From Clytia hemisphaerica (lineage: Eukaryota): a DNA stretch of 64,000 nucleotides. The notes under the pieces are model-generated. The model had not been told where the DNA came from and searched no databases. It worked only from the letters and a program-made list of their open reading frames with translations. The translations under genes were made by a program, and so were the position numbers. Of the stretch, positions 3,001-64,000 are shown one piece after another. The stretch is from contig NW_027104280.1 in the NCBI RefSeq assembly GCF_902728285.1, positions 483,995 through 547,994 on the forward strand, written 5' to 3'. Numbering within the stretch: the first letter of the stretch is position 1; every line of letters starts with the position of its first letter.

Positions 3001-6000
3001 TCTTTTTATCAAAGATGGCGCATAATCTTACTTCATGTAGAGACAGAGTAGCTCGATGTAGTGCTTTATACAAGATATCCGTGTCTCTAACTAATCTCAA
3101 TAACATGTTACGTTTCGAATATTGAGTCTCCCTTGAAAACCCCGGGGGGATACTAGGGCAAGATGGGTTACGGGGATGCTCTGCTGGTCAGGGTACCCTT
3201 TTTAACCTCTACGAGTCCCAGGCAGGGTCGCAAAAACACCAAAATAGAAAAATCAGTCCCTCGTAGGGTGCCTATTTTTGGAAAATTTGGGGAAAAAATA
3301 GAAAATTTGAGAACATTTTGGAATTTCAGTCCCATTCAGGGTCACTTTTTTCTCAAATTTCGAGTCCCACGTAGGGTCCATTTCTCGAACATCAGCGGAG
3401 CACCCCCGTCGGTCGGCAAATGTAGTACCCCCCCCCCCGGGTTGAAAACATACCTATTACGATACAATTGGTTTATCTCTGGTGACATGATCGAGATTCC
3501 AATTAAAGTCTGTCCAGATATAATTGGCAGTGGAAACAAGAATGCCTGTAACTTTTGATAGTCAAATATAATTATGGAAATTTTTTTTGCTTGTTTTAGA
3601 GAATCAAAAGCGCTATATTTGAATGTATTTTTGGTTGAAAAATTCGCGATTTTAAGTGGTTAAATTTGCGATTGCAAAAATTGAGCTTTTTTTCTACTTA
3701 TGCTATAACGTTCATTTTTACACCAGTGGTAGTTCAACCTTGAGTTAAGAAGTTTGTTAAATTTCAAGGCAAACAGAAAAGTCCTTCAGAAGATATGGGA
3801 CCCGAAATACCCCTTGGTAGCACTTTTCTGTGAAATATCAAATCTCCAACTTATTACTAAAAACGGGGGTAGTGATATGATAAAACAGTTTTTCGATCAT
3901 AACAAATTTTACGATCTCTTTAATAACCTCATAGCCAAACTGTGTTTAGGGTTTTGGGAATTAGCAAAGTTCTTTAGACTTAAAAATAACAAAGGCAATA
4001 TAAGTTCATGCTTATCTTTTCAATAAAAACAATTATACTGTGATTTCACTTCGTTTCGAAATACTAAATGATACCAATAGCAATAATACCAATGCACCAA
4101 CACTTAACATTTTCCAACTTTTAATTGCACTGTTCAAAAAAGATAACATAACCCCCGTTTTTAGTAATAAGTTGGAGATTTGATATTTCACAGAAAAGTG
4201 CTACCAAGGGGTATTTCGGGTCCCATATCTTCTGAAGGACTTTTCTGTTTGCCTTGAAATTTAACAAGCTTCTTAACTGAACTACCACTGGTGTAAAAAT
4301 GAACGTTATAGCATAAGTAGAAAAAAAGCTCAATTTTTGCAATCGCAAATTTAACCGCTAAAAATCGCGTATTTTTCAACCAAAAATACATTCAAATACA
4401 GCACCTTTGACTCTCTAAAACAAGCAAAAAAAATTTCCAGAATTATATTTGACTATCAAAAGTTACAGGCTTTCTTGTTTCCACTGCCAATTATATCTGG
4501 ACAGACTTTAGTAAAGTTTTAAGAAGTAATTCTAATAATTCTGGACTGGGTTTCTTAGTGCTACCATTTTAGTTTTTACGTTCCCATTCGGTAAAAGTAG
4601 AAACGCTGTACTATATCACCGAGATGGTCAGGGTTTCTCTTAAATCTTCTTGAAAAGTTTCATTTCGTGAAACCACTTGATTACCATGGTAACATTTTCT
4701 TGTATTTATTTTTCAGAAAGGGAAAACGTTTGAAGAGAGATGTGCTGACATCAACAAGTTTTTAACTTTTTACCAACAGGTAATTATTTAATCGAAAAAT
4801 GTAACAATTCCAAATCTAACCTAGTAGCGAGGGATATTTATTTCAAATATTGAAATGCAATGGGAGCAAAAAAAGTTCAAACCTTGCTTTCTACGTCCAA
4901 GTTAAGTTTAATTCTCAACTATTCTCAATTCGAAATTGTTTCTTTACCAGGGTGGCCTGACACAATTCACCGCCCGTGCATTGGAATTCACGATGTTGAC
5001 CGCCTCCATTTCCACCCTGGCTCAAAAAATGGAAGAGTTGATCAAGAACGCCAACAGCAAAGTGTTCGAGTTTTATTATGGAAGCAACTGGAAATGGACT
5101 GACAAATATTTTGTTCTCCTCGGTTCCTTGAGGTAGCAATCTGTTATATTAGAGTTTAGTCAAGTGAGGTCTCAATTCCCCTTATTCAATCTCCCCAATT
5201 TTCTCTGTTCGATTTCTTGTTTAAAAGTCGTGTACCTTCTTACTTTACTTTTGTTGCTTTCAATAAAAAGGAATCGAAGATTCCATAAAACCAATCTTTC
5301 TTTCTTTGCAGACAAAATCTGGAATGTGAAATGGAATATCATTTGAGGAACCCTTTCAAGAAGAGACGCAGTTGTTTCGGTAAGTCTCAATTTATGATAA
5401 TGATAAATATATATTTTTTATATGTCAGCAATTTATAAGCATTAAAATCTCTATATATAAAGTTCTTTAACAATCCACATTTCAAATTTGTTTTTGTACC
5501 CAATGGTCACATTTCATCTACTTGATAAATCGATAGAATCAGTTGCTGTCCTTTTTCTGCTACAACAAGTCCTCTTCATCCTCTCTTTGACGAGTCTGTT
5601 TTTGGACAAATAAACGAAAGCGTTGGAAAGAGAGTTAAGAGTAAAAAGATAAAAAGTTGCCAGCAACATTTCATCAGGCGCGTCTCGGTCTTTAGCGATA
5701 CGGAAAGCTTTGACGGTCAAATCGAAAGAGTAAGTTATGAAGAAACAGAAAATGATGATGAAAGAGATTTGGAACGCCCTCAGTTTCTTTTTACGAGTTT
5801 CCTCTCTCGTTTTCTGTCGTTCACTTTCAAGAGAGTTTTGCTTCAATTGTCGTAAATGTTTTTTCAAATTCATGAAAATATACGCATGCGCAGATATGAT
5901 GATGACCAGGGTTGCCATGTTAACGAGAATGATGATACCAAGACAAACAAAGTCCACCTCCTCTTCCTCATCTCCGTAAAGTTTGTTGAAAATCGTGAAA

Positions 6001-9000
6001 ATGAGAATCAGTGAAAGTGGACCAGCCCAAGAGAATGTTATCAAAACCTTTTGTTTACGTTTTGTTAGCCACGTGTCGTATTTTAAATTCAAGTAGATAG
6101 CCCAAAATCGATCTAGAGTCAACAGTAAGATATTGGTTGAGACGATCGTTTCAAAGGAGGTGCAAATCAAACTCACGTAGCGCATGATTCGTAATTCTTC
6201 AAAGTTTCTGTCATCTGACCACCTCTTGGTGACTTGCACAACAATCAGTGTGAAAATGCTTGCGTTGTTTACAAAATGTGCCATCATCAAACTGAACAAA
6301 AACACTCCATGGCCACGACGAAGTAATTTCGTACGTTCGTGTATAAAAAATATGAGGATTGCGCTGATGAAAATGAGAGTCAGTGTGAGCAAGGATAGAT
6401 AGAGATACACTATTTGGAATTCGTCTTCTTTTCGACAGATCCCTCCATGCATTCGAATACAGGAAACGTTTTGTGATGCTCGAATCGCCATTTTGTGAAC
6501 TTGACTGATTTTCAAGATTTGCCTTTTTGTTTTCATTCCATCGATAGCTTTCTCTTTACACTAATCTACAAAAGCAAATATTTGACGCTAGTCTCAAATT
6601 TCATGAGACTATTTGTTTGAGATTGCTATTTTCACCTTTTCCTAACCTAAGGTTTTTTTTCACAATTTAGTGGTATGTTATTAAGCGAAAACCAGCTTGG
6701 GGACGCTTGTTTATTAAGGTTTATGAACATAAGAAACCCAGAAATTCACACAGTGGACTATATTCTGAGTTTAAATTTCCTTGTTGAAAGATCTCATGAA
6801 TCTCTATGAAATCTATCTCAATACAAACATAATTGTCATCAAATACTTTAAAATGTTACAATTTCATCCTTCCTTGTCAGACATTCACTATCTTTCCTTG
6901 ACTTAAAATTTTCTCACTTTTTCAAATTCAGTAAATACACTACATCGACTGCTGGGATAAAAAGAAAAACAAAATCACGTTTGACTTTCCTAATGAATCT
7001 TAAATGAACTCTCAATATCCAATTGAAAATCTTTTTCCCTTTTTTTATGGTTTTAGATTTCAATTTCAAGAATATCACGGGGGTTTCTTTTCTGAGCTAA
7101 TTAAAAGCAAATTCGGGGTTAAAACTTTAAACTTTTTCAGAACTGTTTTTTCGCACGCCTGTGTCGTAAATTTCTTTCCCCTACACGGCGCTGACAAGAT
7201 GATCATTTCAGTTCTCTTTACGTTATAAATAAATAAATTATTCCCTTTTTTTTAGTTGACATCTTGGAGTTATTCCAATTCCATTGCCAGTACGTCTCAT
7301 CTCCGCTTCGCTTGCGCTGGAATGAATTGTGTTATGGTAGCGATGAACTGGAGGAAAGTACGGCAGCTGGCAAAAAGAAAAGGTCAGTCACGTGATTTTT
7401 AAGACTGGAGAAAGTTGTTTTTTCGTACTCACAAATGGGAACAACAACTTGAAACGTAATTGAAATCATAATTATAGGAAAAAAGCTGTATGAAATAACT
7501 ATGCTAATCGAGCGTAAAAAGCGCTAGAAGCTATCGTAAGCGTGTGGTCTAATGGGTGACGCTTAAACGCGGATGAGGGTAAAATTAACCTCGTGCGTTT
7601 GGTTATATTTATGAAACAAGTATTTATAACAACACTTTCTAATATAATTTGTTTCAAAAATTTATCTTTATATATTTTTTTCAGTTCGTTGACTTACAAT
7701 GAAATTCCATTGCTTATGGTGGACGCCAGAAACCTGGTGTTGCAATTCATTTTAACCTGGCCTCACCACATGTCCAAAGGTGACTTCACTCATTTATTTC
7801 TCAACAGTTTCAGTTAGCTATGAATTATAACACTCCAGTGACGGATCAAAGAGAACATCTATGATGGAGCGTGTCTCTTTTAGTCATAATCTTTATAAGG
7901 AAATTAACACTCTCTCCCTTACACTTTTACTACGCTGACAGCCATCAAAATTTCACCGGTCCAACGCACCATAAACATTACAATTTATTTGTCTAAATAT
8001 TTGGTTCGTCAAATCAAAAGTGCATAACAATGCTAATCAATGCACTGGGCTTGGTAAAAATTCACTGGAGTTAATTTTTCATTTGTCTGCCTATCAAAAA
8101 CAAAGCAGATTCCTGCGTTGATGATGACACTTTACCAGTCAGTCAAACTCAGTCAATTTAAAAGAAGCCTTTCCCCTCTTTTATCTGTCCGACATAGAAA
8201 TATGTTTGCGCCTTTCTAATTACATGCCTGTCTATTTTACAGGAGAATTTCTTCATGTTATTCAACTTTGCTTCAACTTAAACTTCGTCCAGGTAAATAA
8301 GGGGCCGTCCATATAACACGTACGCAAAGATTTTCCAAAAAAATTGATACCCCCTCCCCCCTTGTACGCAAAGAACAATAGAAATTATGTCATTTAAACA
8401 ATAGATGTACGCCTTTACTAACCCCCCCTCTCCCCCCTTCACTGCGTACGTACTATATGGATGGCCCCTAATTTTATTCGAGGCCCCTCTCGTGATTATT
8501 TTGAAGGATTTGCAAAGGAAGTTCAATTAAAGTTTGATAAAAACTGATGCTCCTTTGAAGCCTTTTGCGATAAATTATAGGAATTGTATTCCCTTCTATT
8601 TTTACTTCTTCTAAACAGGCGCTGATTTGTATTGGATTTTCGCTGGAGCCCTCAGAAGTCGAAAGTTGGATCCAATCTTCCAACAAAGTAAGTTTTATCA
8701 TTAATCTTCAGACATAAAAATCTATAATATATCTACAAACATTAAATAATTTAAAGGGAGAGGGGCTTATCTAAAGAATCCTGCATTACTAAAAATAGAC
8801 AGAAAGAACGACAAATTTCATAAAAAAACATTTATCACGGGAATTAACTACATGTGGTCTAAAAGAACGACAAATTACGCATGCGTGTTACAATGCAGGA
8901 TTCTTAGGAACAGACTGGGATGTCCCTACTAACTCTTTCTAACTCAAATAAGTCGGAGAAAAGGGTAAACTCACTTTCATAGCTATCTCCTACTTCTTAG

Positions 9001-17079: not shown

Positions 17080-18460
17080 TTATTGTTTATAGTTAGTCAG
17101 CACTCTAGCTGAGGGATCTTTCACATCTCCCTCTTGCCATCTGGGCATCCAAAAGTATGGCAATATATGGCACTGACCAGGATACTTGGATTCAAACATG
17201 GTGCGGTAATACAGGCTTTCGAAGGAGAAAGGTGGGTTGATAGGGAATTTCTCGGCAGCTTCTTCCAGTTGTTGTTTGGTGAAAAGTGTAGCTGCATGGC
17301 GTTGGATGTGTGAAAACCATGAATCAGTTTTCTGAGAGATTCCATCACTAAATGCTTCTTTGGGTCGCCATAAGATCTCATCCGGTAGCAGGCCTTTGAG
17401 GTGGCCATCAAACGCCGAGCGAAGGAGGAATTTTTCGACGCCATCTTTCGGTTGGACGAGTTGTTTATCGATGGAGAGGTAATATGAGGTGAAAGCTTTG
17501 TCCAAGAAAGGTACACGTAGCTCCAATCCATGGGCGGAGATGGTTCGATCCGCCCTCAAGTTGTCAAAGATGTACAATTCACGCAGGAGGCGTTTGGAAT
17601 CTTCATGGGCGGCTTCGGGCGTTGGTGCTTTGTGGAAGTAGATGTAACCTTGAGTGAGCTCGTCTGATCCTTCGCCGGAGAAAATGACGACGGTGTTTGT
17701 GTTTTTGCGGATGTATTTGGCCAACAAAAACATGGGTGTGGACGCCCTGTTTGTGGTGATGTCATAACTCTCTAAGGCATAGTTTACATCAGGAAGAGCA
17801 TCTAAAGCTTCTTGTGGTGTGATGAGGACTTCGTGGTGCTCTGTCTGCAACATTTCGGCCACCTTTCGTGCTTTCATTACATCAGGTGATCCTGGGAAGC
17901 CGATTGAAAAGGTTTGGATGGGGTATTTGATGCCCATTTCTCTGGATAGCTTGACAACCAATGCTGCAACTAGACTAGAATCAAGTCCACCGGAGAGCAA
18001 ACATCCTATCCTCCGTTCGGCCATCAATCGCTTTCGGACAGCATCAGTCAACAGGTTGCGGATGTTTTCTTTGACGTCATCGGTGAGCGTGATTGGAATG
18101 TCGAAGGCTTGTGGAACGTCGACATCTGTGAAAGATTTTTCTTCTAACAATTTAGAGAGGCCAGTTTCTTTACAGATGTTGAAGGTAGCATAGGTTCCAG
18201 GCTTCAGTTGCTTGATAGGTCTTGCTTTTCCGTTCGATTTGTTCAAACCAATCAAACCTTTAGCTTCGGATGAAACTCCTAACTCACCGGAATCCGGACG
18301 TAACGTGAATAACGGACGCACCCCGAATGTGTCTCTTCCAATGTGGAAAGTTCCATTTTCCGAATCAAAAATGGAGACAGCGAACACTCCATCCAGTAAT
18401 TGTAATGTTTTCTCCATGCCAAATTTGTTGTAAAGATGAATGATGATCTCACCGTCCATT
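17080..18460 (-). CDS. ASNS: Asparagine synthetase (glutamine-hydrolysing), exon 2, through the stop codon
   Basis: Acceptor tctctcatag|a. Collinear with human ASNS throughout: DGEIIIHLY, SGGLDSS PP-loop, FSGEGSDE, LRVPFLD, ends SARVLTNYKQ*. Confidence 0.85.
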
Positions 18461-18630
18461 CTATGAGAGAGGGAAACTCATTTATTAAATCATTCTTTTG
18501 GAAGAAATTGACTAGAACTGCCCAATTTACAGTTTGTGTCATTTGTGGAAGTTTTGAATGGTTGAGGTTGCAAAGGATGTCGAGAAATCTTTTCACATGG
18601 TGAAATTCAAAATGAATATTTTTAACTTAC

Positions 18631-18914
18631 GATGTCGTTTGTTCAAATCCATATTTTTGGAAGAGTTCTTTGAAGTTATAGATTTCACCGTTGTACGTGA
18701 GATGGATGTGAGGTAGTGAATACAAACGCATGGGTTGTTGTCCTGTCAAATTATCCATGATGGAGAGTCGATGGAACGCTAAGTAGGAGTGTTTGAAGTT
18801 CGGAAGACTTTCGATACGGAAGAAATCCGGTCCTCGGTGAGCGATGAGGAGAGCATGATGGAGTTCTGACGAAGCTTGATGATCGTAACCAAAGATGGCC
18901 CAAATCCCACACAT
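18631..18914 (-). CDS. ASNS: Asparagine synthetase (glutamine-hydrolysing), exon 1
   Basis: Starts MCGIWAIFG (N-terminal nucleophile Cys2 of class II glutamine amidotransferases). AHRGPD and NGEIYN motifs present. Donor on the minus strand is atc|gtaagt. Confidence 0.85.
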
Positions 18915-35500: not shown

Positions 35501-38500
35501 TTACACAAATAACAGATTGAAACTAAAATTTACCGCTTAATTTCGAAAAATATATCACTCGAAAACAAAGGAATTGCTAGATTCAATCCGTCATCAAAAA
35601 TACGGCGCATATTTTAAGGCTTCAATTTTTCTTGCCTGAGAAAGGTTAGAGATTGACCTCTAGCCCTTCGGGCTTGAAACTCAATGGGTGGTACATGTCA
35701 CTTTCGGTCGGGGCTGTGGACGGCCAAATATGTCGATTTTTATGAAATTTGTCGTTTTTTTTGTCTATTTTTAGTAATGCAGGATTCTTTAGATAAACCC
35801 CTCATGATATTATGATATCTCGTTATAAAAAGTGATGGCATCAATTCATTTCAGTCGGTTTCAATCCTGTAAAACCTTAAAAACACACGGTGAATAGGTC
35901 ATCAACTTCTAGTTATTAGAATTCTGTAGATAACCCTTTTCTTTTTCATTGTATTCGAACTCTTTGTATGACTTCCCAAGGGAATGTTGTGGTGCTTATA
36001 AAGACTTTTTTACAGGTTTTGTACGGGATTGTTGTGGTGCATATAAAGACTTTTTTACAGGTTTTGTACGGGAATGATGTGATGCATATTAAAACTTTTT
36101 TACAGGTTTTGTACGGGATTGTTGTGGTGCATATAAAGACTTTTTGACAGGTTTTGTACGGGAATTTTGTGATGCATATAAAGACTTTTTTACAGGTTTT
36201 GTACGGGATTGTTGTGGTGAATATAAAGACTTTTTTACAGGTTTTGTACGGGATTGTTGTGATGCATATAAAGACTTTTTTACAGGTTTTGTACGGGATT
36301 GTTGTGGTGCATATAAAAACTTTTTACAGGTTTTGTACGGGAATGATGTGATGCATATTAAAACTTTTTTGCCTGTTTTTACAGGTTTTGTACGGGGTTG
36401 TTGTGGTGAATATAAAGACTTTTTTACAGGTTTTGTACGGGATTGTTGTGGTGCATAGAAAGACTTTTTTTACAGGTTTTGTACGGGATTGTTGTGGTGA
36501 ATATAAAGACTTTTTTACAGGTTTTGTACGCGGATTGTTGTGGTGAATATAAAGACTTTTTTACAGGTTTTGTACGGGATTGTTGTGATGTATATAAAGA
36601 CCTTTATTACAGGTTTTGTACGGGATTGTTGTGATGTATATAAAGAATTTTTTACAGATTTTGTACGGGATTGTTGTGGTGAATATAAAGACCTTTTTAC
36701 AGGTTTAGTACGGTAATGTTGTAGTGAATATAAAGACCTTTTTTACAGGTTTTATACGGGATTGTTGTGGTGAATATAAAGAGTTTTTTACAGGTTTTGT
36801 ACGGGATTGTTGTGGTGCATATAAAAACTTTTTACAGGTTTTGTACGGGAATGATGTGATGCATATTAAAACTTTTTTACCTGTTTTTACAGGTTTTGTA
36901 CGGGGTTGTTGTGGTGAATATAAAGACTTTTTTACAGGTTTTGTACGGGATTGTTGTGGTGCATAGAAAGACTTTTTTTACAGGTTTTGTACGGGATTTT
37001 TGTGGTGAATATAAAGACTTTTTTTACAGGTTTTGTACGCGGATTGTTGTGGTGAATATAAAGACTTTTTTACAGGTTTTGTACGGGATTGTTGTGATGT
37101 ATATAAAGACCTTTATTACAGGTTTTGTACGGGATTGTTGTGATGTATATAAAGAATTTTTTACAGATTTTGTACGGGATTGTTGTGGTGAATATAAAGA
37201 CCTTTTTACAGGTTTAGTACGGTAATGTTGTAGTGAATATAAAGACCTTTTTTACAGGTTTTATACGGGATTGTTGTGGTGCATATATATTTTATTTTAT
37301 TGGACCTACCCCAGTGGAGGTCCTATAAATTAACCGTTGTATGTTCGTTCGTTCGTTACCAGCTTTTCTCGAGATTGGCTCATTAGTTTTTTCTGATTTT
37401 TTGCACAAAGATGCATAACTATAAACCCTCGAATGTGACGGAGCCCGATTTTCGAAAAAAAAATTTTTAGGCAAATCTGGGCCAAAAAACGGCTAAAAAA
37501 CGGGTTTTTTGGACTTTGTGAAAAATTGGATCATTAATTTTTTCTGATTTTTTGTATCAAAGTAGGGTACCATCATAGGTAAAAGATGGCTCAGGCAGAT
37601 TTTTGTAAAAAAAATTTTTTGGCTCAAAAACGCATGTTTATCTATAAGAATCACTATTAATAAGCATACATCAATGTTCTTAGTCAAATTACTCAATTAT
37701 TTTTATGAGATAGATGTATTTTTTGCTATTGAGGGCTTACTTTTGAAGAATATGTGTGTTTAGACATGAAATTTAGGCTGCTTGGCGTGCTTTTATAGAA
37801 AAACTGGCCTAATTCGATATTTTTTTATAAGCACATTATCAATTACTTAGGTATTAGCTTTTCTCGAGTTTGGCGCTTTCATTCTTTATGATTTTTTGCA
37901 CAAAGATGCATAACTATAAACCCTCGAATGTGACGGAGCCCGATTTTCGAAAAAAAAATTTTTTAGGCAAATTTGGGCCAAAAAACGACTAAAAAACAGG
38001 TTTTTTGGACTTTGTGAAAAATTGGATCATTAATTTTTTCTGATTTTTTGTAGGATAGTAGGGTATCATCATAGGTGAAAGATGGCTCAAGCAGATTTTT
38101 GCAAAAAAAATTTATTGGCTTAAAAAACGCATGTTTATCTATAAGAATCAATATTAATAAGCATACATCAATGTTCTTAGTCAAATTACTAAATTTTATT
38201 ATGAGATCGATGTGTTTTTTTGCTCACGAAGTCTTGAATATGAAAGAATATTTATAGAGCATGAAATTTTGGTTTCTAAACGGTTTTTTATAAGAAACAA
38301 ACGATTAATTTTAATAGATCGTCACTATTAGTGTTCTGAATGATTGTTTAATGGTCACGCTCACGTAGATATCAATTATATATGTGTTAAATGCATAACC
38401 AGGTAGGTCCATAAAGGTATCACTTGTTTTATTTTATTTTTATTTTCCAATTTATTTAACGTTGGGCTGACATCGTTATAATTAAAAATACTAATTAATA

Positions 38501-39377
38501 CCAACTATATAGAATACAATATAGTATAGAATAATAAATTTAAAATTTTTTTTTATGTGTATATTTTACAATGACAAATATTTGTAAGATTTAGTTTTTC
38601 TTTCAGACTTTTTTTTTACAGTTTTTGTACGGGATTGTTGTGGTGAATATAAATACCTTTTTTACAGGTTTTGTACGGGAATGTTGTGGTGCATATAAAA
38701 ACTTTTTTTACAGGCTTTGTACGGGATTGTTGTGGTGAATATAAAAACCTTTTTTACAGGTTTTGTACGGGATGGTTGTGGTGAATATAAAGACCTTTTT
38801 TACAGGTTTTTGTACGGGATTGTTGTGGTGAATATAAATACCTTTTTTACAGGTTTTGCACGGGAATGTTGTGGTGCATATAAAAACCTTTTTTACAGGT
38901 TTTTGTACGGGATTGTTGTGGTGAATATAAATACCTTTTTTGCAGGTTTTGTACGGGAATGTTGTGGTGCATATAAAAACCTTTTTTACAGGTTTTGTAC
39001 GGGATTGTTGTGGTGAATAGAAAACCTTTTTACGGTTTTGTTGGTTGTGGTAAAACCTTACAGGTTTTTTCTTTGGTTGGTTGTGGTGAATATAAAGACC
39101 TTTTTTACAGGTTTTGTACGGGATGGTTGTGGTGAATATAAAGACCTTTTTTACAGGTTTTGTACGGGATTGTTGTGATGCATATAAAGACCTTTTTTAC
39201 AGGTTTTGTACGGGATTGTTGTGATGATTATAAAGACCTTTTTTCTTCTCTCCATTTTTCAAGGTTAATGATTTCACGATCGCCAATCCACTCGATCGCG
39301 GTATGTTTGACATTTGCGGATTCGATTCTAACGTACCTGACCTGATCTGCGAGATCGCCAGAGGAAATATGTCTTAA
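31484..39377 (+). CDS. RO60: Ro60/TROVE2-like paralog B, 7 exons; the last intron (~4 kb) is filled by 45-bp satellite arrays and a MITE
   Basis: join(31484..32539,32954..33217,33386..33550,34018..34188,34352..34609,35057..35248,39264..39377). The ATG is preceded by an in-frame TGA. Motifs: [97 protein letters not shown]. The terminal exon VNDFTIANPLDRGMFDICGFD aligns residue for residue with A's contiguous [22 protein letters not shown]. Confidence 0.8.
32954..33217 (+). CDS. RO60: Ro60-like B exon 2
   Basis: Acceptor tttccag|aat; donor gag|gtaata. Confidence 0.75.
33386..33550 (+). CDS. RO60: Ro60-like B exon 3
   Basis: Acceptor ttttag|gtt; donor aag|gtttgc. 165 nt, as in A and C. Confidence 0.8.
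33831..34009. repeat. 26-bp minisatellite, about 7 units, directly upstream of the exon 4 acceptor of paralog B; each unit carries GTAAGT
   Basis: Unit cctgtaagtaatgcaccgtgattgaa, with variants. Confidence 0.85.
34018..34188 (+). CDS. RO60: Ro60-like B exon 4 (contains a Q-rich tract)
   Basis: Acceptor tgttacag|att; donor agg|gtaagc. Confidence 0.75.
34352..34609 (+). CDS. RO60: Ro60-like B exon 5 (MIDAS, DVSDSM)
   Basis: Acceptor ccatag|caa; donor tct|gtaagt. Confidence 0.8.
34831..34935. mobile_element. Hairpin MITE (ttatcggcc...ggccgataa) inserted in intron 5 of paralog B; the site is empty in paralog C
   Basis: B has aaatatatac[attatcggcc...ggccgataagg]tataaaaaatcgact. C has aaatatatttaaaaatcgact at 44527. 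Confidence 0.65.
35057..35248 (+). CDS. RO60: Ro60-like B exon 6
   Basis: Acceptor tttcag|ctc; donor aag|gtttgt. Confidence 0.75.
35985..37290. repeat. 45-bp satellite array, about 29 units, with ~510-bp higher-order periodicity, in the last intron of paralog B
   Basis: Unit ttttttacaggttttgtacgggattgttgtggtgcatataaagac. One frame is stop-free, which produces periodic pseudo-ORFs reading YKDFFTGFVRDCCGA. Confidence 0.9.
37302..38410. mobile_element. GGACCTACC-family element, two nested or tandem copies, in the last intron of paralog B
   Basis: ggacctaccccagtggaggtcc at 37302. The internal module is repeated at 37860. Ends aggtaggtcc at 38402-38410. Confidence 0.7.
38595..39245. repeat. Second array of the same 45/46-bp satellite, abutting the terminal-exon acceptor of paralog B
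   Basis: Variant unit ccttttttacaggttttgtacgggaatgttgtggtgcatataaaaa. It ends about 20 nt before the acceptor at 39263. Confidence 0.9.
39264..39377 (+). CDS. RO60: Ro60-like B terminal exon
   Basis: Acceptor tttttcaag|gtt; stop taa at 39375-39377. Direct homolog of C's terminal exon. Confidence 0.7.
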   Translation, partial: VNDFTIANPLDRGMFDICGFDSNVPDLICEIARGNMS

Positions 39378-60239: not shown

Positions 60240-62446
60240 ATTCAGCATCTAGCTTGTTAATACAGGGATACATGACAATTCGAACCTAATTTCTCAAAGA
60301 TTTCCTTCACCCTTCCAATTAGTTTGCAAATGAAAAATAAAAGCCGTTTGTTGGGACCCCTTACTCATGACCACTATACGATATCACTCTGGTCTTGACA
60401 AACATTTTCGCGATTTCAACGGCGAAATAGGAGCAGAAGTGTGATTGTTTAATGTAGTATTTTTTACTGGTATGTTAGGATTTTATTGGATTTGTTTTTC
60501 ATTGAATTTTTTATAATTTTAAAATTCTAATGATAAGAGTTTTGTTTGTTTGTTTTGCCAATTGCAGGTCGATAGTATAAAGTACATTGTCCGTCTTTTG
60601 ATCCGCGTTTTAAAGTTCGGGTATTCAATTTATTTTCAGAATTTTTGAAAATTGATTAAGTTCTGTTGCTTCAATCTTCGCACGAACTTTGTCTTTTCCC
60701 GTGGAATGATAAATTTTGAGCGACGAATCGTAATTTATTTACCGCCTGCACAACTGTTTAAATTACACCCATGGGTAAAAGCTGAGAGGAGAACCTTTTG
60801 CATTTCAATGCTTTTTTTAGGGAAAAAGGTTTTAAATATTTGTGCCATATTTTCTTTATTGCACTACTAATTATATGATAGATACGAAATGGAACTTGTA
60901 AATTTTATAATTTTATAATTTTATAATTCATAGACACGTAGGACGCTTAGCTTAGTATATTGTATATGAGAATGATATGTATTCGTGTCTAGTTTCTTAG
61001 AAATCTTCTTAAAATGCTTCCATTTGAATGACAGTAGAGTCTTTTCAACTCAAAAAATTTTACTCGTCTCTTTAGTTAACAATGCCTTATAAGCCTTACT
61101 CTATAACTCGAAATTTTTTTAACTCGGACAATTTTACATTCCTCCTGCTTGTTCGAGTTATGGAGATTTCACTGTATTTCTCATAAGTCTTGTAAGATTT
61201 AAAGGTTTTGTTTTTAAATAAGAGTGATATCGTTTGCTTAGTCATCAATTTTATTTACAAGTTTTTTCACATTGGATTGACACGGGTATGGAGCAAGATT
61301 GACCAGAAAGAGGAAAAGGAAACATTTTTTTGCTTACATCAGCATAATATAACAAAAGGCAGACATTGTCCTGATATGAAACATGTGTCTGATATGAAAC
61401 GGGAACACTTACGTAAAAATAAAACCTTTAAACCGGAGAGATGATTTATGTGAATCACAAATACCTTTTCCACCATTTTAAAGTAATATTTTATAAAAGC
61501 AATGGTTGAGTTGGAAAGAGATTGAAATAGTGGATCTCTTGAAAATAGGGGATCTCTCTTCTGACGAGCAAAGAATAGACCTTATCGGAGTTTTTTATTT
61601 TTCTAAAAAAGCGATGCATTGTGGGATTGTTTCGAGTGTATTACAATAGAAATCTCTTAGGAATTCCTCGAGGGAATTCTATTGTAATACACTCGAAACA
61701 ATCCCACAATGCATCGCTTTTTTAGAAAAACGAAAAACTCCGATAAGGTCTATTCTTTATTAGACATTATTAACGTACAGAAAAAATCTGTACCACCTTT
61801 GTACTTGTTTAAGTGATGTTTTTGTGGAAGAGGGCATAAGGAATTTCTAGTTTGTTATTTTTGATTTTCTTGATTTATTTGACTAATCTGTTAATTTTTC
61901 TACTTTTAGACTAGATAATGCTCAAAGAAATGAGCGAAAGATCTTGTAAATGTAAGTGTTTTTCCCTGTCTGAAAAAAAGATTGAAATTATCATTATATT
62001 ATCATTATTATGATTTCTTTAATTTTAGCAAGATATAACCAGCAAAAAAACAAGAGAAAAAAATAAAAACTCAAGCAGAATAATGCTGGTGGAACTGTGA
62101 TACAAATTTGAGGAGGCGCAACTATCATGGATGGTAATTTTCATTTACATCTCTATCTCTTGCTCAATATTACTAATACAGTCTCATTCCTTGGGGTGTG
62201 TGGTCTTTTCCCATTCCGATAACGCCCAGCCCCTTGATAGGTATTTTACCACCTGGCAAGCATCAAAGCGCCCTCTTCTCTGGTCAAGAAAACATCCTTA
62301 GAAGAAACATTGTTCTTCTAACCCTGGACAAAGCATCGTTAAATTCTTTTTTCTTAAAATGTCAAATCTAAAGCAACACTGATTTAACTTTTGGCACCGC
62401 CTTTATTTTTTGACTCTTTTCTTTCGACTACATTTTAGATTTCAAA

Positions 62447-62524
62447 ATGGCCGATGGAAAACCTACCGGAGAAGAATTAAAGACTGGTAACGAAGAAGAA
62501 TGTGGACACGCCCAAAGTGTAAAG
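62447..62524 (+). CDS. DDX60: DDX60-like helicase, exon 1 (MADGKPTGEELKTGNEEECGHAQSVK)
   Basis: ATG at 62447; donor aag|gtaatt. Joins in frame to the next exon. Confidence 0.5.
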
Positions 62525-63259
62525 GTAATTCTCAAGCTGATCTGCACAAGCTTGGGTTTGGTATAGTGATTACCATATACCACAAGGTTACAGAAAAAGC
62601 ATCGAATATTACAGAAATACAATATACATTTTTTACCAAAAAGACTTTTAGCTCCGTTTTACCATGGTCATTATAAAAACTGGTCTGGAAGGCTTCATTG
62701 TTAAAAGATGGAGCTTACGTACCATTATCGATTTTTTATCATGTGATTAGAAAATAGACCAATCCCAAGAGGAGATTTTGGTAACGTGATCAAAAAGTAG
62801 GCAAATCACAACTTGTCTTTTGTTTGTAACAAAAGAAAATTGAACAAAAAGCTAAAACAATACATTCCCAGACCGGAGGTTTTTATAATAACTATGGGTT
62901 AACTGTGTATAGAAAACTTAAAATGTTGAAGCAGCAAATATGTAAAACAGAAAAAATGAAGCGACTGCTTTTGTAGAAGTTTACTGTGTACATCTAAGCT
63001 CAACATTGTCATAAACGGTTATCGTTCACAAGCTTGAGGCAATTTGTTTTTATATCTGAAAAAGCAATTAAATTCAGAAACAACGCATCTTAAGCTGAAA
63101 GTCAAAAACATTCCAACATAAAAAGAAATTTGCGATATCCTTGTTGGCTTTAATTCCCAAATAATTTAATTCCGAAATAAACATCTGACAATCTAATTAA
63201 TGGAGGCATGCAACACATATTTGTCAATTATTTCTAATATCATTTTCTTCGTACCTCAG

Positions 63260-64000
63260 AACGAAGCGGTTGACAAAAAAGTCGAAACCACGAATGAGGA
63301 AGCGAACGATGTGATGGACAGTGAAAAGAAAGAAGATGGGAAGAGTGCAGACAGCAAAGGAAAGAAGCAAGAATCATTGAAACAAAAAGATGGGAAAGCT
63401 CAGAAAGGAAAAAGCAACAAAGACAAAAAGAAGGAAAAGAAAGACCAAAAGAAAAAGAAGAAGGATGAAGCGAAAAAATCAGTGAACGAAGAGAAGAAAA
63501 CAGAAAGACCATCTGATACGTTACCTCGACTTGTTGACATCAAGAGTGAATTTTCCGCTACCAATACGTTTTTAGTGGATGGAGATAGCTTGATGTTGTC
63601 TTGTTTAGAAGACCAAAATGTAAGATGGTTACACGGTGGAGTGTTCTTGCATCTCATTTACCTGGTGGAACGAAAGTTGCAAATATTCTTCGAGAAGAAA
63701 GCCAATTTCAATATCGTCTTTTTCAAATTCGCTGCACCAACTTTGTGGCGAGGTGACGAATCGTTGACCTTGTTTCGTGAGGTACTTATCATCCATTTGC
63801 AACAATCTTTGAAACTCGAAGTTTTGACGGAATTCCTTAGTCCTTGGGATGAAAGATTTGTTCAATATACGAGCGATAATAACCCAAACTTAATGTTGAT
63901 GTGCGAAAGTTCTACAAACGAGAAGAGAAAATCATGGTTCAAAAAGATCGTGAAATATTTCTTGGGGTTAGCAATTAACGTAGCTTTCCTTGATGATATT
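63260..64000 (+). CDS. DDX60: DDX60-like helicase, exon 2 (K/E-rich linker then conserved DDX60 N-terminal domain), open to the window edge
   Basis: TFLVDGDSLMLSCLEDQN...FLHLIYLVERKLQIFFEKKANFNIVFFKFAAP...LTLFREVLIIHLQQSLKLEVLTEFLSPWDE aligns with human DDX60 N-terminus FFLIDGDSLLITCICEISFKPGQNLHFFYLVERYLVDLISKGGQFTIVFFKDAEY...LSLRTALILHLQKNTTIDVRTTFSGCLSKEW (recalled from memory). Confidence 0.7.

What the first reader, a model, noticed from the sequence alone, without database searches (positions are those of the whole stretch)
62447..64000. DDX60-like antiviral helicase gene adjacent to the Ro60 cluster
The two 3'-most exons encode a K/E-rich linker followed by a region closely matching the N-terminus of vertebrate DDX60 (FLVDGDSLML..., LIYLVERKL..., NIVFFKFA...). 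In vertebrates DDX60 is an interferon-inducible RIG-I cofactor. Its presence beside an expanded array of RNA-chaperone Ro60 paralogs suggests an RNA-sensing and quality-control neighbourhood. This could be an innate-immune locus in this invertebrate.
Basis: partly seen in the sequence, partly recalled or inferred. Interest (0 to 1): 0.6.

Follow-up and report, generated by a model that had tools for sequence, protein, structure and literature searches.

The report
Start of a jellyfish DDX60 gene
The last 1.5 kb of the window holds the start of the Clytia hemisphaerica member of the widespread DDX60 RNA-helicase family; it is an ordinary family member cut off by the window end, and nothing found links it functionally to the neighbouring Ro60 genes.

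Summary

The window comes from Clytia hemisphaerica. Comparison with an 82%-identical relative gives dN/dS 0.12, so the exon has been under purifying selection.

Several claims are not shown:
- **Helicase.** It lies beyond base 64000. It is inferred because all six closest long relatives carry DEAD domains 700-900 residues downstream.
- **Exon 1.** 62447-62524 has canonical splice sites but no homology or RNA support.
- **"Closely matching vertebrate DDX60".** This is overstated: identity is 30%.
- **Immune-locus idea.** It has no support. No TROVE gene lies within 10 kb of DDX60 in Hydra or in another hydrozoan-like contig. ISRE-like motifs are not enriched. The RIG-I cofactor role is itself disputed in mice.

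No Clytia protein model containing this exon was found, so a disrupted gene cannot be excluded. This is a new member of a known kind, of low interest.

The parts
62447..62524 (+). Putative first coding exon (26 codons, MADGKPTGEELKTGNEEECGHAQSVK), ending in phase 0
   Evidence: Read from the sequence: ATG in an AAAATGG context and donor AAG|GTAATT. There is no homology or RNA support, so this is inferred only.
62525..63259 (+). Putative intron (735 nt, GT...AG, pyrimidine tract before the acceptor)
   Evidence: Read from the sequence. An in-frame ATG at 63200 lies inside it, so an unspliced start is a possible alternative.
63260..63505 (+). K/E-rich low-complexity N-terminal extension (about 82 codons)
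   Evidence: Translation. It has no counterpart in Hydra or P0002, which have short N-termini. Ptychodera and Branchiostoma carry acidic extensions instead. It is coding only by virtue of the open frame.
63506..64000 (+). PIN-like_DDX60 domain, the first ~75% of it (profile positions 26-169 of 225), cut off by the window end

Best explanation
This is the 5' end of the Clytia hemisphaerica member of the DDX60 family. These are large Ski2/Brr2-like DExH RNA helicases that begin with a PIN-like domain of the FEN/XPG 5'-nuclease fold.

**Shown.** The window holds a lysine/glutamate-rich, probably disordered N-terminal tail and about three quarters of the PIN-like domain, under purifying selection.

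**Inferred from relatives.** The gene continues beyond base 64000 for another ~1,300-1,700 codons. These would encode a linker, the DEAD/ResIII and Helicase_C cores and the DDX60 winged-helix/C-terminal domains.

**Inferred from the literature on family members.** The protein is an ATP-driven RNA/RNP remodeller acting on ribosome-bound mRNA. kDDX60 sits at the mRNA entry side of the trypanosomatid 43S complex. Human DDX60 lowers translation from type II IRESs and needs both its N- and C-terminal regions. The PIN-like domain most likely serves as an RNA- or ribosome-docking module. Whether it still cleaves RNA is unknown.

An antiviral, inducible role in this hydrozoan is possible but untested. 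Its position next to the Ro60/TROVE array is most simply a matter of gene order.
For: - **Family match.** Pfam PIN-like_DDX60, 80.4 bits against a cut-off of 27.
- **Relatives.** The exhaustive HMMER search returns long proteins that match at their N-termini. The six closest long ones all have PIN-like_DDX60 plus DEAD, with or without Helicase_C. Four of them are named DDX60 by NCBI: Hydra, Ptychodera, Branchiostoma and Limulus.
- **Solved structures.** The best PDB sequence hit is kDDX60, 7ASE_f.
- **Family motifs.** The DGD, LH..YLVE and IVFF motifs are conserved.
- **Selection.** dN/dS is 0.12 over 153 codons against the 82%-identical relative L001.
- **Continuation.** In L001, DDX60-homologous coding continues beyond the point where the window ends.
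- **Organism.** The asparagine synthetase ORF is 100% identical to Clytia XP_066929343.1.
- **Function.** PMC7773551, PMC9724679 and PMC4833184.
Against: - No helicase sequence is in the window, and none could be fetched.
- No Clytia protein containing this exon was retrieved from a 5.8-billion-cluster collection that does hold RefSeq and EukProt Clytia proteins. The gene may be unannotated, called a pseudogene or disrupted downstream.
- The related contig L001 has an in-frame TAG 49 codons past the window-end equivalent.
- Exon 1 and the K/E-rich stretch have no comparative support.
- The conserved GGQ is GGV here.
- By my own reading of that alignment against the FEN-family motifs, the position of a FEN-type second carboxylate (VFDG) is VFFK. 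That argues against an intact nuclease site.
Confidence: 0.75

Rival explanations
1. The exon belongs to a disrupted or truncated copy: a recent pseudogene, or a stand-alone PIN-like gene fragment that no longer makes a full-length helicase.
For: - No Clytia protein model with this peptide was found, although Clytia RefSeq and EukProt proteins are in the collection.
- The closest relative's contig carries an in-frame stop shortly after the domain.
- The helicase part is unseen.
Against: - The frame is open for 267 codons in AT-rich DNA.
- dN/dS of 0.12 shows long-term constraint.
- All long relatives are full helicases.
- The short hits look like fragments from short contigs rather than a stand-alone family.
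Confidence: 0.2
2. The DDX60 gene and the five tandem Ro60/TROVE paralogs form a co-regulated RNA-surveillance or antiviral gene island.
For: - All six genes lie on the + strand within 37 kb.
- Both families bind RNA.
- Vertebrate DDX60 is interferon-inducible (PMC4833184).
- DDX60 modules occur in cnidarian immune-type TRADD-N fusion proteins (PMC8195603).
- Absence from transcript-based protein models would fit a gene that is silent until induced.
Against: - There are no TROVE hits within +-10 kb of DDX60 in Hydra (L003) or in L004.
- ISRE-like cores number 14 against 11.6 expected.
- No Y RNA or other Rfam hit is present.
- None of the three papers holding both DDX60 and Ro60 appears, from title and abstract, to address a link; I did not read them.
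- Adjacency of unrelated genes in animal genomes is weak evidence of shared function.
- Asparagine synthetase and a GPCR lie in the same window.
Confidence: 0.06
3. The match is a chance open frame or a non-coding region with spurious similarity.
For: None beyond the low-complexity nature of the K/E-rich segment.
Against: - Pfam E 1.7e-22.
- 50 hits at E<=1e-10 in the exhaustive search.
- dN/dS 0.12.
- A confident fold.
Confidence: 0.01

Closest known systems
Hydra vulgaris 'probable ATP-dependent RNA helicase DDX60' (XP_047132693.1 / XP_065682236.1)
   Same: It is the closest named relative. It is 39% identical over 158 aa of the PIN-like domain (E 3e-32). It has the same motifs (FLIDGDSLL, HGGQ.LH.VYLVER, HIVFFK) and is also a hydrozoan protein. 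In Hydra too the domain is encoded in one exon.
   Different: Hydra has only ~45 residues before the domain and no K/E-rich tail. The Hydra gene spans 67 kb. Its helicase part is seen, whereas here it is not.
Vertebrate DDX60 / DDX60L (interferon-stimulated Ski2-like helicases)
   Same: The N-terminal domain is homologous: 30% identity over 151 aa to Microcaecilia DDX60, E 2e-17. Both belong to the same Pfam family. In human DDX60 the N-terminal region is required for antiviral activity (PMC9724679).
   Different: The sequences are much more divergent than "closely matching" suggests. Cnidarians have no interferon system of the vertebrate type (my own knowledge, not checked here), so inducibility cannot be transferred. 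The RIG-I cofactor role is not reproduced in knockout mice (PMC4833184).
Kinetoplastid kDDX60 (PDB 7ASE chain f), bound to the 43S pre-initiation complex
   Different: Identity is only 14-26%. kDDX60 has kinetoplastid-specific inserts such as the A-site insert (PMC7773551). Ribosome binding has not been shown for animal DDX60.
FEN1/EXO1/GEN1/XPG/T5 5'-nuclease (FEN-like PIN) superfamily
   Different: Sequence identity is 4-13%. Foldseek E-values are only 0.01-0.06. The second carboxylate position appears to be replaced (VFFK). The rest of the active site lies beyond the window. Nuclease activity has not been shown for any DDX60 as far as I could find (one search found no paper with both DDX60 and PIN-like).

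Membership tests
DDX60 family (PIN-like N-terminal domain + Ski2/Brr2-like DExH helicase) | N-terminal PIN-like_DDX60 domain (Pfam PF23002) above the gathering score | tested here: met
   80.4 bits against a cut-off of 27, E 1.7e-22. Residues 96-243 of exon 2 match profile positions 26-169 of 225.
DDX60 family (PIN-like N-terminal domain + Ski2/Brr2-like DExH helicase) | The nearest relatives in a comprehensive search are DDX60 proteins, matching at their N-termini | tested here: met
   One search gives the hit positions, another the architectures and the NCBI names: Hydra, Ptychodera, Branchiostoma and Limulus DDX60.
DDX60 family (PIN-like N-terminal domain + Ski2/Brr2-like DExH helicase) | The fold of the N-terminal domain matches that of a solved DDX60 family member | tested here: met
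DDX60 family (PIN-like N-terminal domain + Ski2/Brr2-like DExH helicase) | DExH helicase core (DEAD/ResIII + Helicase_C) downstream in the same gene | not testable with these tools
   It lies beyond base 64000. tblastn finds no helicase exons in the window. Downstream DNA could not be fetched. All six closest long relatives have the core.
DDX60 family (PIN-like N-terminal domain + Ski2/Brr2-like DExH helicase) | DDX60 winged-helix and C-terminal domains (PF26076, PF26167) | not testable with these tools
   They lie beyond the window. They are present in Hydra DDX60 and in Microcaecilia DDX60.
Antiviral / interferon-stimulated DDX60 (functional class) | Induction by infection or nucleic-acid sensing, and antiviral activity | not testable with these tools
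   No expression data are available. ISRE-like cores are not enriched. The literature searches that were run found no functional study of DDX60 in cnidarians or other invertebrates.
FEN-like PIN 5'-nucleases | Shared alpha/beta nuclease core fold | tested here: met
FEN-like PIN 5'-nucleases | A full set of metal-binding carboxylates | tested here: inconclusive
   DGD, and a D/E at the LMCES position, are conserved across the family alignment. The VFDG-type position is VFFK here (the mapping onto FEN motifs is by eye, from my own knowledge). The last quarter of the domain lies outside the window.
Functional gene cluster with Ro60/TROVE | Conserved linkage of DDX60 and TROVE genes in other species | tested here: not met
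   There is no TROVE tblastn hit within +-10 kb of DDX60 in Hydra (L003) or L004. This is a weak test because the flanks are short.

The most novel reading that the evidence does not exclude
In leptothecate hydrozoans a normally silent DDX60 helicase, carrying a lineage-specific lysine-rich tail, is co-regulated with an expanded and diverging array of Ro60/TROVE paralogs. Together they would form an inducible RNA-surveillance or antiviral island. This could also explain why the gene is missing from transcript-based protein models.
Probability: 0.05. Interest if true: 0.55.

Novelty: new member of a known kind. Interest (0 to 1): 0.15.

Why it matters
DDX60 helicases are poorly understood, even in mammals, and their N-terminal PIN-like domain has no assigned activity. 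A cnidarian orthologue adds a data point for an ancient family of this architecture that predates interferon.

The practical value here is modest:
- It flags an exon that seems to be missing from the Clytia protein models held in the collection searched.
- It shows that the N-terminal domain is constrained (dN/dS 0.12) and folds like the kDDX60 and FEN-type nuclease cores.

The more exciting claim, an immune or RNA-quality-control gene neighbourhood with Ro60, would matter if true. It has no support beyond adjacency.

Tried and rejected
**Attempts to reach the downstream helicase**
- Exact-product look-ups for the window's GPCR ORF and for Clytia asparagine synthetase found no indexed locus. 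I could not walk along the Clytia scaffold.
- A protein-pattern scan and an exact 28-mer scan of the metagenome contigs found nothing.
- The last word-indexed protein search, with P0002 as query, was swamped by low-complexity K/E words. It returned only P0002 itself and one caecilian DDX60. Whether an annotated Clytia helicase exists remains unknown.

**Tests of the immune or Ro60 neighbourhood idea**
- tblastn with the TROVE ORFs against the Hydra and L004 DDX60 loci gave no hits.
- ISRE-like GAAANNGAAA occurs 14 times against 11.6 expected.
- Rfam at gathering thresholds found nothing in the window, so no Y RNA.
- Literature searches for DDX60 with Ro60, cnidaria, invertebrate or Crassostrea found no functional study in invertebrates. 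The only relevant mention is of DDX60 modules fused to TRADD-N in cnidarians and brachiopods. One broad literature search was mis-specified and uninformative.

**Other**
- The sigma-70 promoter and terminator scan is irrelevant for a eukaryote and showed no enrichment.
- I considered that the K/E-rich stretch might be intronic or UTR. The frame is open, but the region is T-poor, so an open frame is weak evidence there. The question is unresolved.

Full report
**Observation.** The region reads as the first-stage reader described.
- An ATG at 62447 opens 26 codons that end at a canonical donor (AAG|GTAATT, 62524/62525).
- A pyrimidine tract and CAG acceptor end at 63259.
- From 63260 a frame stays open for 247 codons to the last base of the window.
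- The first ~82 of those codons are lysine/glutamate-rich.
- The quoted strings FLVDGDSLML, LIYLVERKL and NIVFFKFA follow.

Two corrections are needed. First, the frame is already open from an in-frame ATG at 63200. The spliced model is therefore only one of three possible starts (62447 spliced, 63200, 63314), and nothing available tests between them. The 20 extra codons encode the pyrimidine tract, which favours the intron reading. Second, the match to vertebrate DDX60 is homologous but not close: 30% identity over 151 residues to a caecilian DDX60, E 2e-17.

**What it is.** Residues 96-243 of exon 2 match Pfam PF23002, the PIN-like domain of DDX60. The score is 80.4 bits against a gathering score of 27, E 1.7e-22. 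The match covers profile positions 26-169 of 225, so the window cuts the domain.

An exhaustive HMMER search of 1.84 billion representative proteins found 320 hits at E<=1e-3. Many were long (1,200-2,150 aa) and matched at their N-termini. The six closest long hits all carry PIN-like_DDX60 followed 700-900 residues later by DEAD/ResIII, and four also carry Helicase_C. Four of the six are named DDX60 by NCBI, in Hydra vulgaris, Ptychodera flava, Branchiostoma and Limulus. Identity to Hydra DDX60 is 39% over 158 aa, E 3e-32.

A family alignment shows several conserved features:
- the DGD motif;
- GGQ.LH..YLVE, where the window has GGV;
- IVFF;
- an acidic residue at the position of LMCES.

By my own reading of the alignment against FEN-family motifs, the position that holds a second catalytic aspartate in FEN-type enzymes (VFDG) is VFFK here. 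An intact nuclease site is therefore doubtful, and it cannot be judged from a truncated domain.

**Is it a live gene?** The only close relative in the collections is P0001/L001, an 861-nt ENA metagenome contig that is 82% identical at the protein level. A Nei-Gojobori comparison over 153 aligned codons gives dN 0.12, dS 1.02 and dN/dS 0.12. This indicates clear long-term purifying selection. In L001, DDX60-homologous coding continues past the point where the window ends. It aligns with the linker regions of Hydra DDX60 and P0002, but it contains one in-frame TAG. L001 also has an inverted copy of its own exon at its 5' end, probably an assembly artefact.

**Organism and annotation.** The asparagine synthetase ORF at 17080-18459 (-) is 100% identical to Clytia hemisphaerica XP_066929343.1, which lies on a 1.34-Mb scaffold. 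RefSeq and EukProt Clytia proteins are in the collection. Even so, no Clytia protein containing the exon-2 peptide was returned by the word-indexed search. The 185-aa fragment P0001 stands as its own 50% cluster representative. The exon therefore seems absent from the protein models held there. It could be unannotated, called a pseudogene or unexpressed in the reference transcriptome.

**What could not be shown.** No helicase-coding sequence is in the window. Seven DDX60 relatives hit only 63485-64000. All routes to the downstream DNA failed. The helicase is therefore an inference from family architecture, not an observation. I put about 0.75 on an intact full-length gene and about 0.2 on a disrupted or truncated copy.

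**Context and the neighbourhood hypothesis.** The Ro60 array is real.
- The ORF at 27525-29081 matches Ro60 structures at E 6e-29.
- Three ORFs match Pfam TROVE.
- The paralogs at 31.5 kb and 40.9 kb are 91% identical.
- Two further genes, at 47.4 kb and 53.8 kb, are divergent paralogs.

All lie on the + strand, and the last ends about 3.6 kb before the putative DDX60 ATG.

Nothing beyond adjacency links them to DDX60.
- TROVE queries find nothing within 10 kb either side of DDX60 in Hydra (L003) or in a second hydrozoan-like contig (L004). The flanks are short, so this is a weak test.
- ISRE-like cores are at chance level, 14 against 11.6 expected.
- Rfam finds no Y RNA or any other family in the window.
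- Three papers hold both DDX60 and Ro60. Judged by title and abstract only, none looks like a study of a link, and I did not open them.
- Asparagine synthetase and a rhodopsin-type GPCR share the window.

**How it most likely works.** This part is inferred from family members.
- DDX60 proteins are Ski2/Brr2-like DExH helicases (PMC4833184).
- kDDX60 binds the trypanosomatid 43S pre-initiation complex at the mRNA entry side and contacts the initiator tRNA anticodon stem-loop. Adding ATP to the complex was accompanied by a rearrangement of the 40S head, which the authors suggest k-DDX60 could drive; the resolution did not show whether ATP was hydrolysed (PMC7773551).
- Human DDX60 selectively lowers translation from type II IRESs and needs both its N- and C-terminal regions (PMC9724679).

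The most likely mechanism for the Clytia protein is therefore ATP-dependent remodelling of mRNA-ribosome complexes. The PIN-like domain would act as an RNA- or ribosome-docking module, or possibly a nuclease. An antiviral role is plausible. DDX60 modules occur in cnidarian TRADD-N fusion proteins (PMC8195603). That role is untested.

**Verdict.** The finding is a correct identification of the N-terminus of a DDX60-family gene in Clytia hemisphaerica. It is a new member of a known and widely annotated family, truncated by the window. The helicase and the first exon remain inferences. The immune or RNA-quality-control locus interpretation is unsupported speculation. Interest is low (0.15).

Noticed in passing
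window 61570-61758: A near-perfect palindrome with 88-nt arms, 95% complementary, and a 13-nt loop. It lies ~0.7 kb upstream of the putative DDX60 ATG and occurs nowhere else in the window. It could be a MITE-like element or a foldback.
   Followed up: partly
window 35980-37287 and 38612-39244: Two 45-46-nt minisatellite arrays (28.5 and 14 copies, ~86% matches) lie between the 91%-identical TROVE paralogs. They produce the strong GC-skew spike at 36-40 kb and spurious repetitive ORFs.
   Followed up: partly
window 27525-58804: Five tandem Ro60/TROVE-like genes lie on the + strand. One is clearly Ro60-like (PDB E 6e-29), two are recent duplicates (91% identity) and two are highly divergent paralogs that no longer reach Pfam TROVE at E 1e-3. 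Several carry poly-lysine inserts (KKKKKKTKKKKKPKEPKP) reminiscent of the K-rich tail of the DDX60 gene.
   Followed up: partly
L001 (ENA ERZ27264646 k141_1354965) 1-75 and ~683-685: This is the contig of the closest relative. Its first 75 nt are an inverted copy of its own exon, probably an assembly artefact. It has an in-frame TAG in the linker after the PIN-like domain, and DDX60-homologous coding continues in the same frame after it.
   Followed up: partly
window 63200-63259: An in-frame ATG lies 20 codons upstream of the proposed splice acceptor, so 63200-64000 is one continuous 267-codon ORF. This gives an alternative, unspliced start for the gene.
   Followed up: yes
window 62447-64000, against the protein collections: No Clytia hemisphaerica protein model containing this PIN-like exon was retrievable, although Clytia RefSeq and EukProt proteins are in the collection. 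This may be an annotation gap or a pseudogene call.
   Followed up: partly
window 17080-18914 (-) and 5514-6536 (-): An asparagine synthetase gene is 100% identical to Clytia XP_066929343.1 over the 459-aa exon. A single-exon rhodopsin-type GPCR ORF also lies here; its exact product is not on record in the collection.
   Followed up: partly
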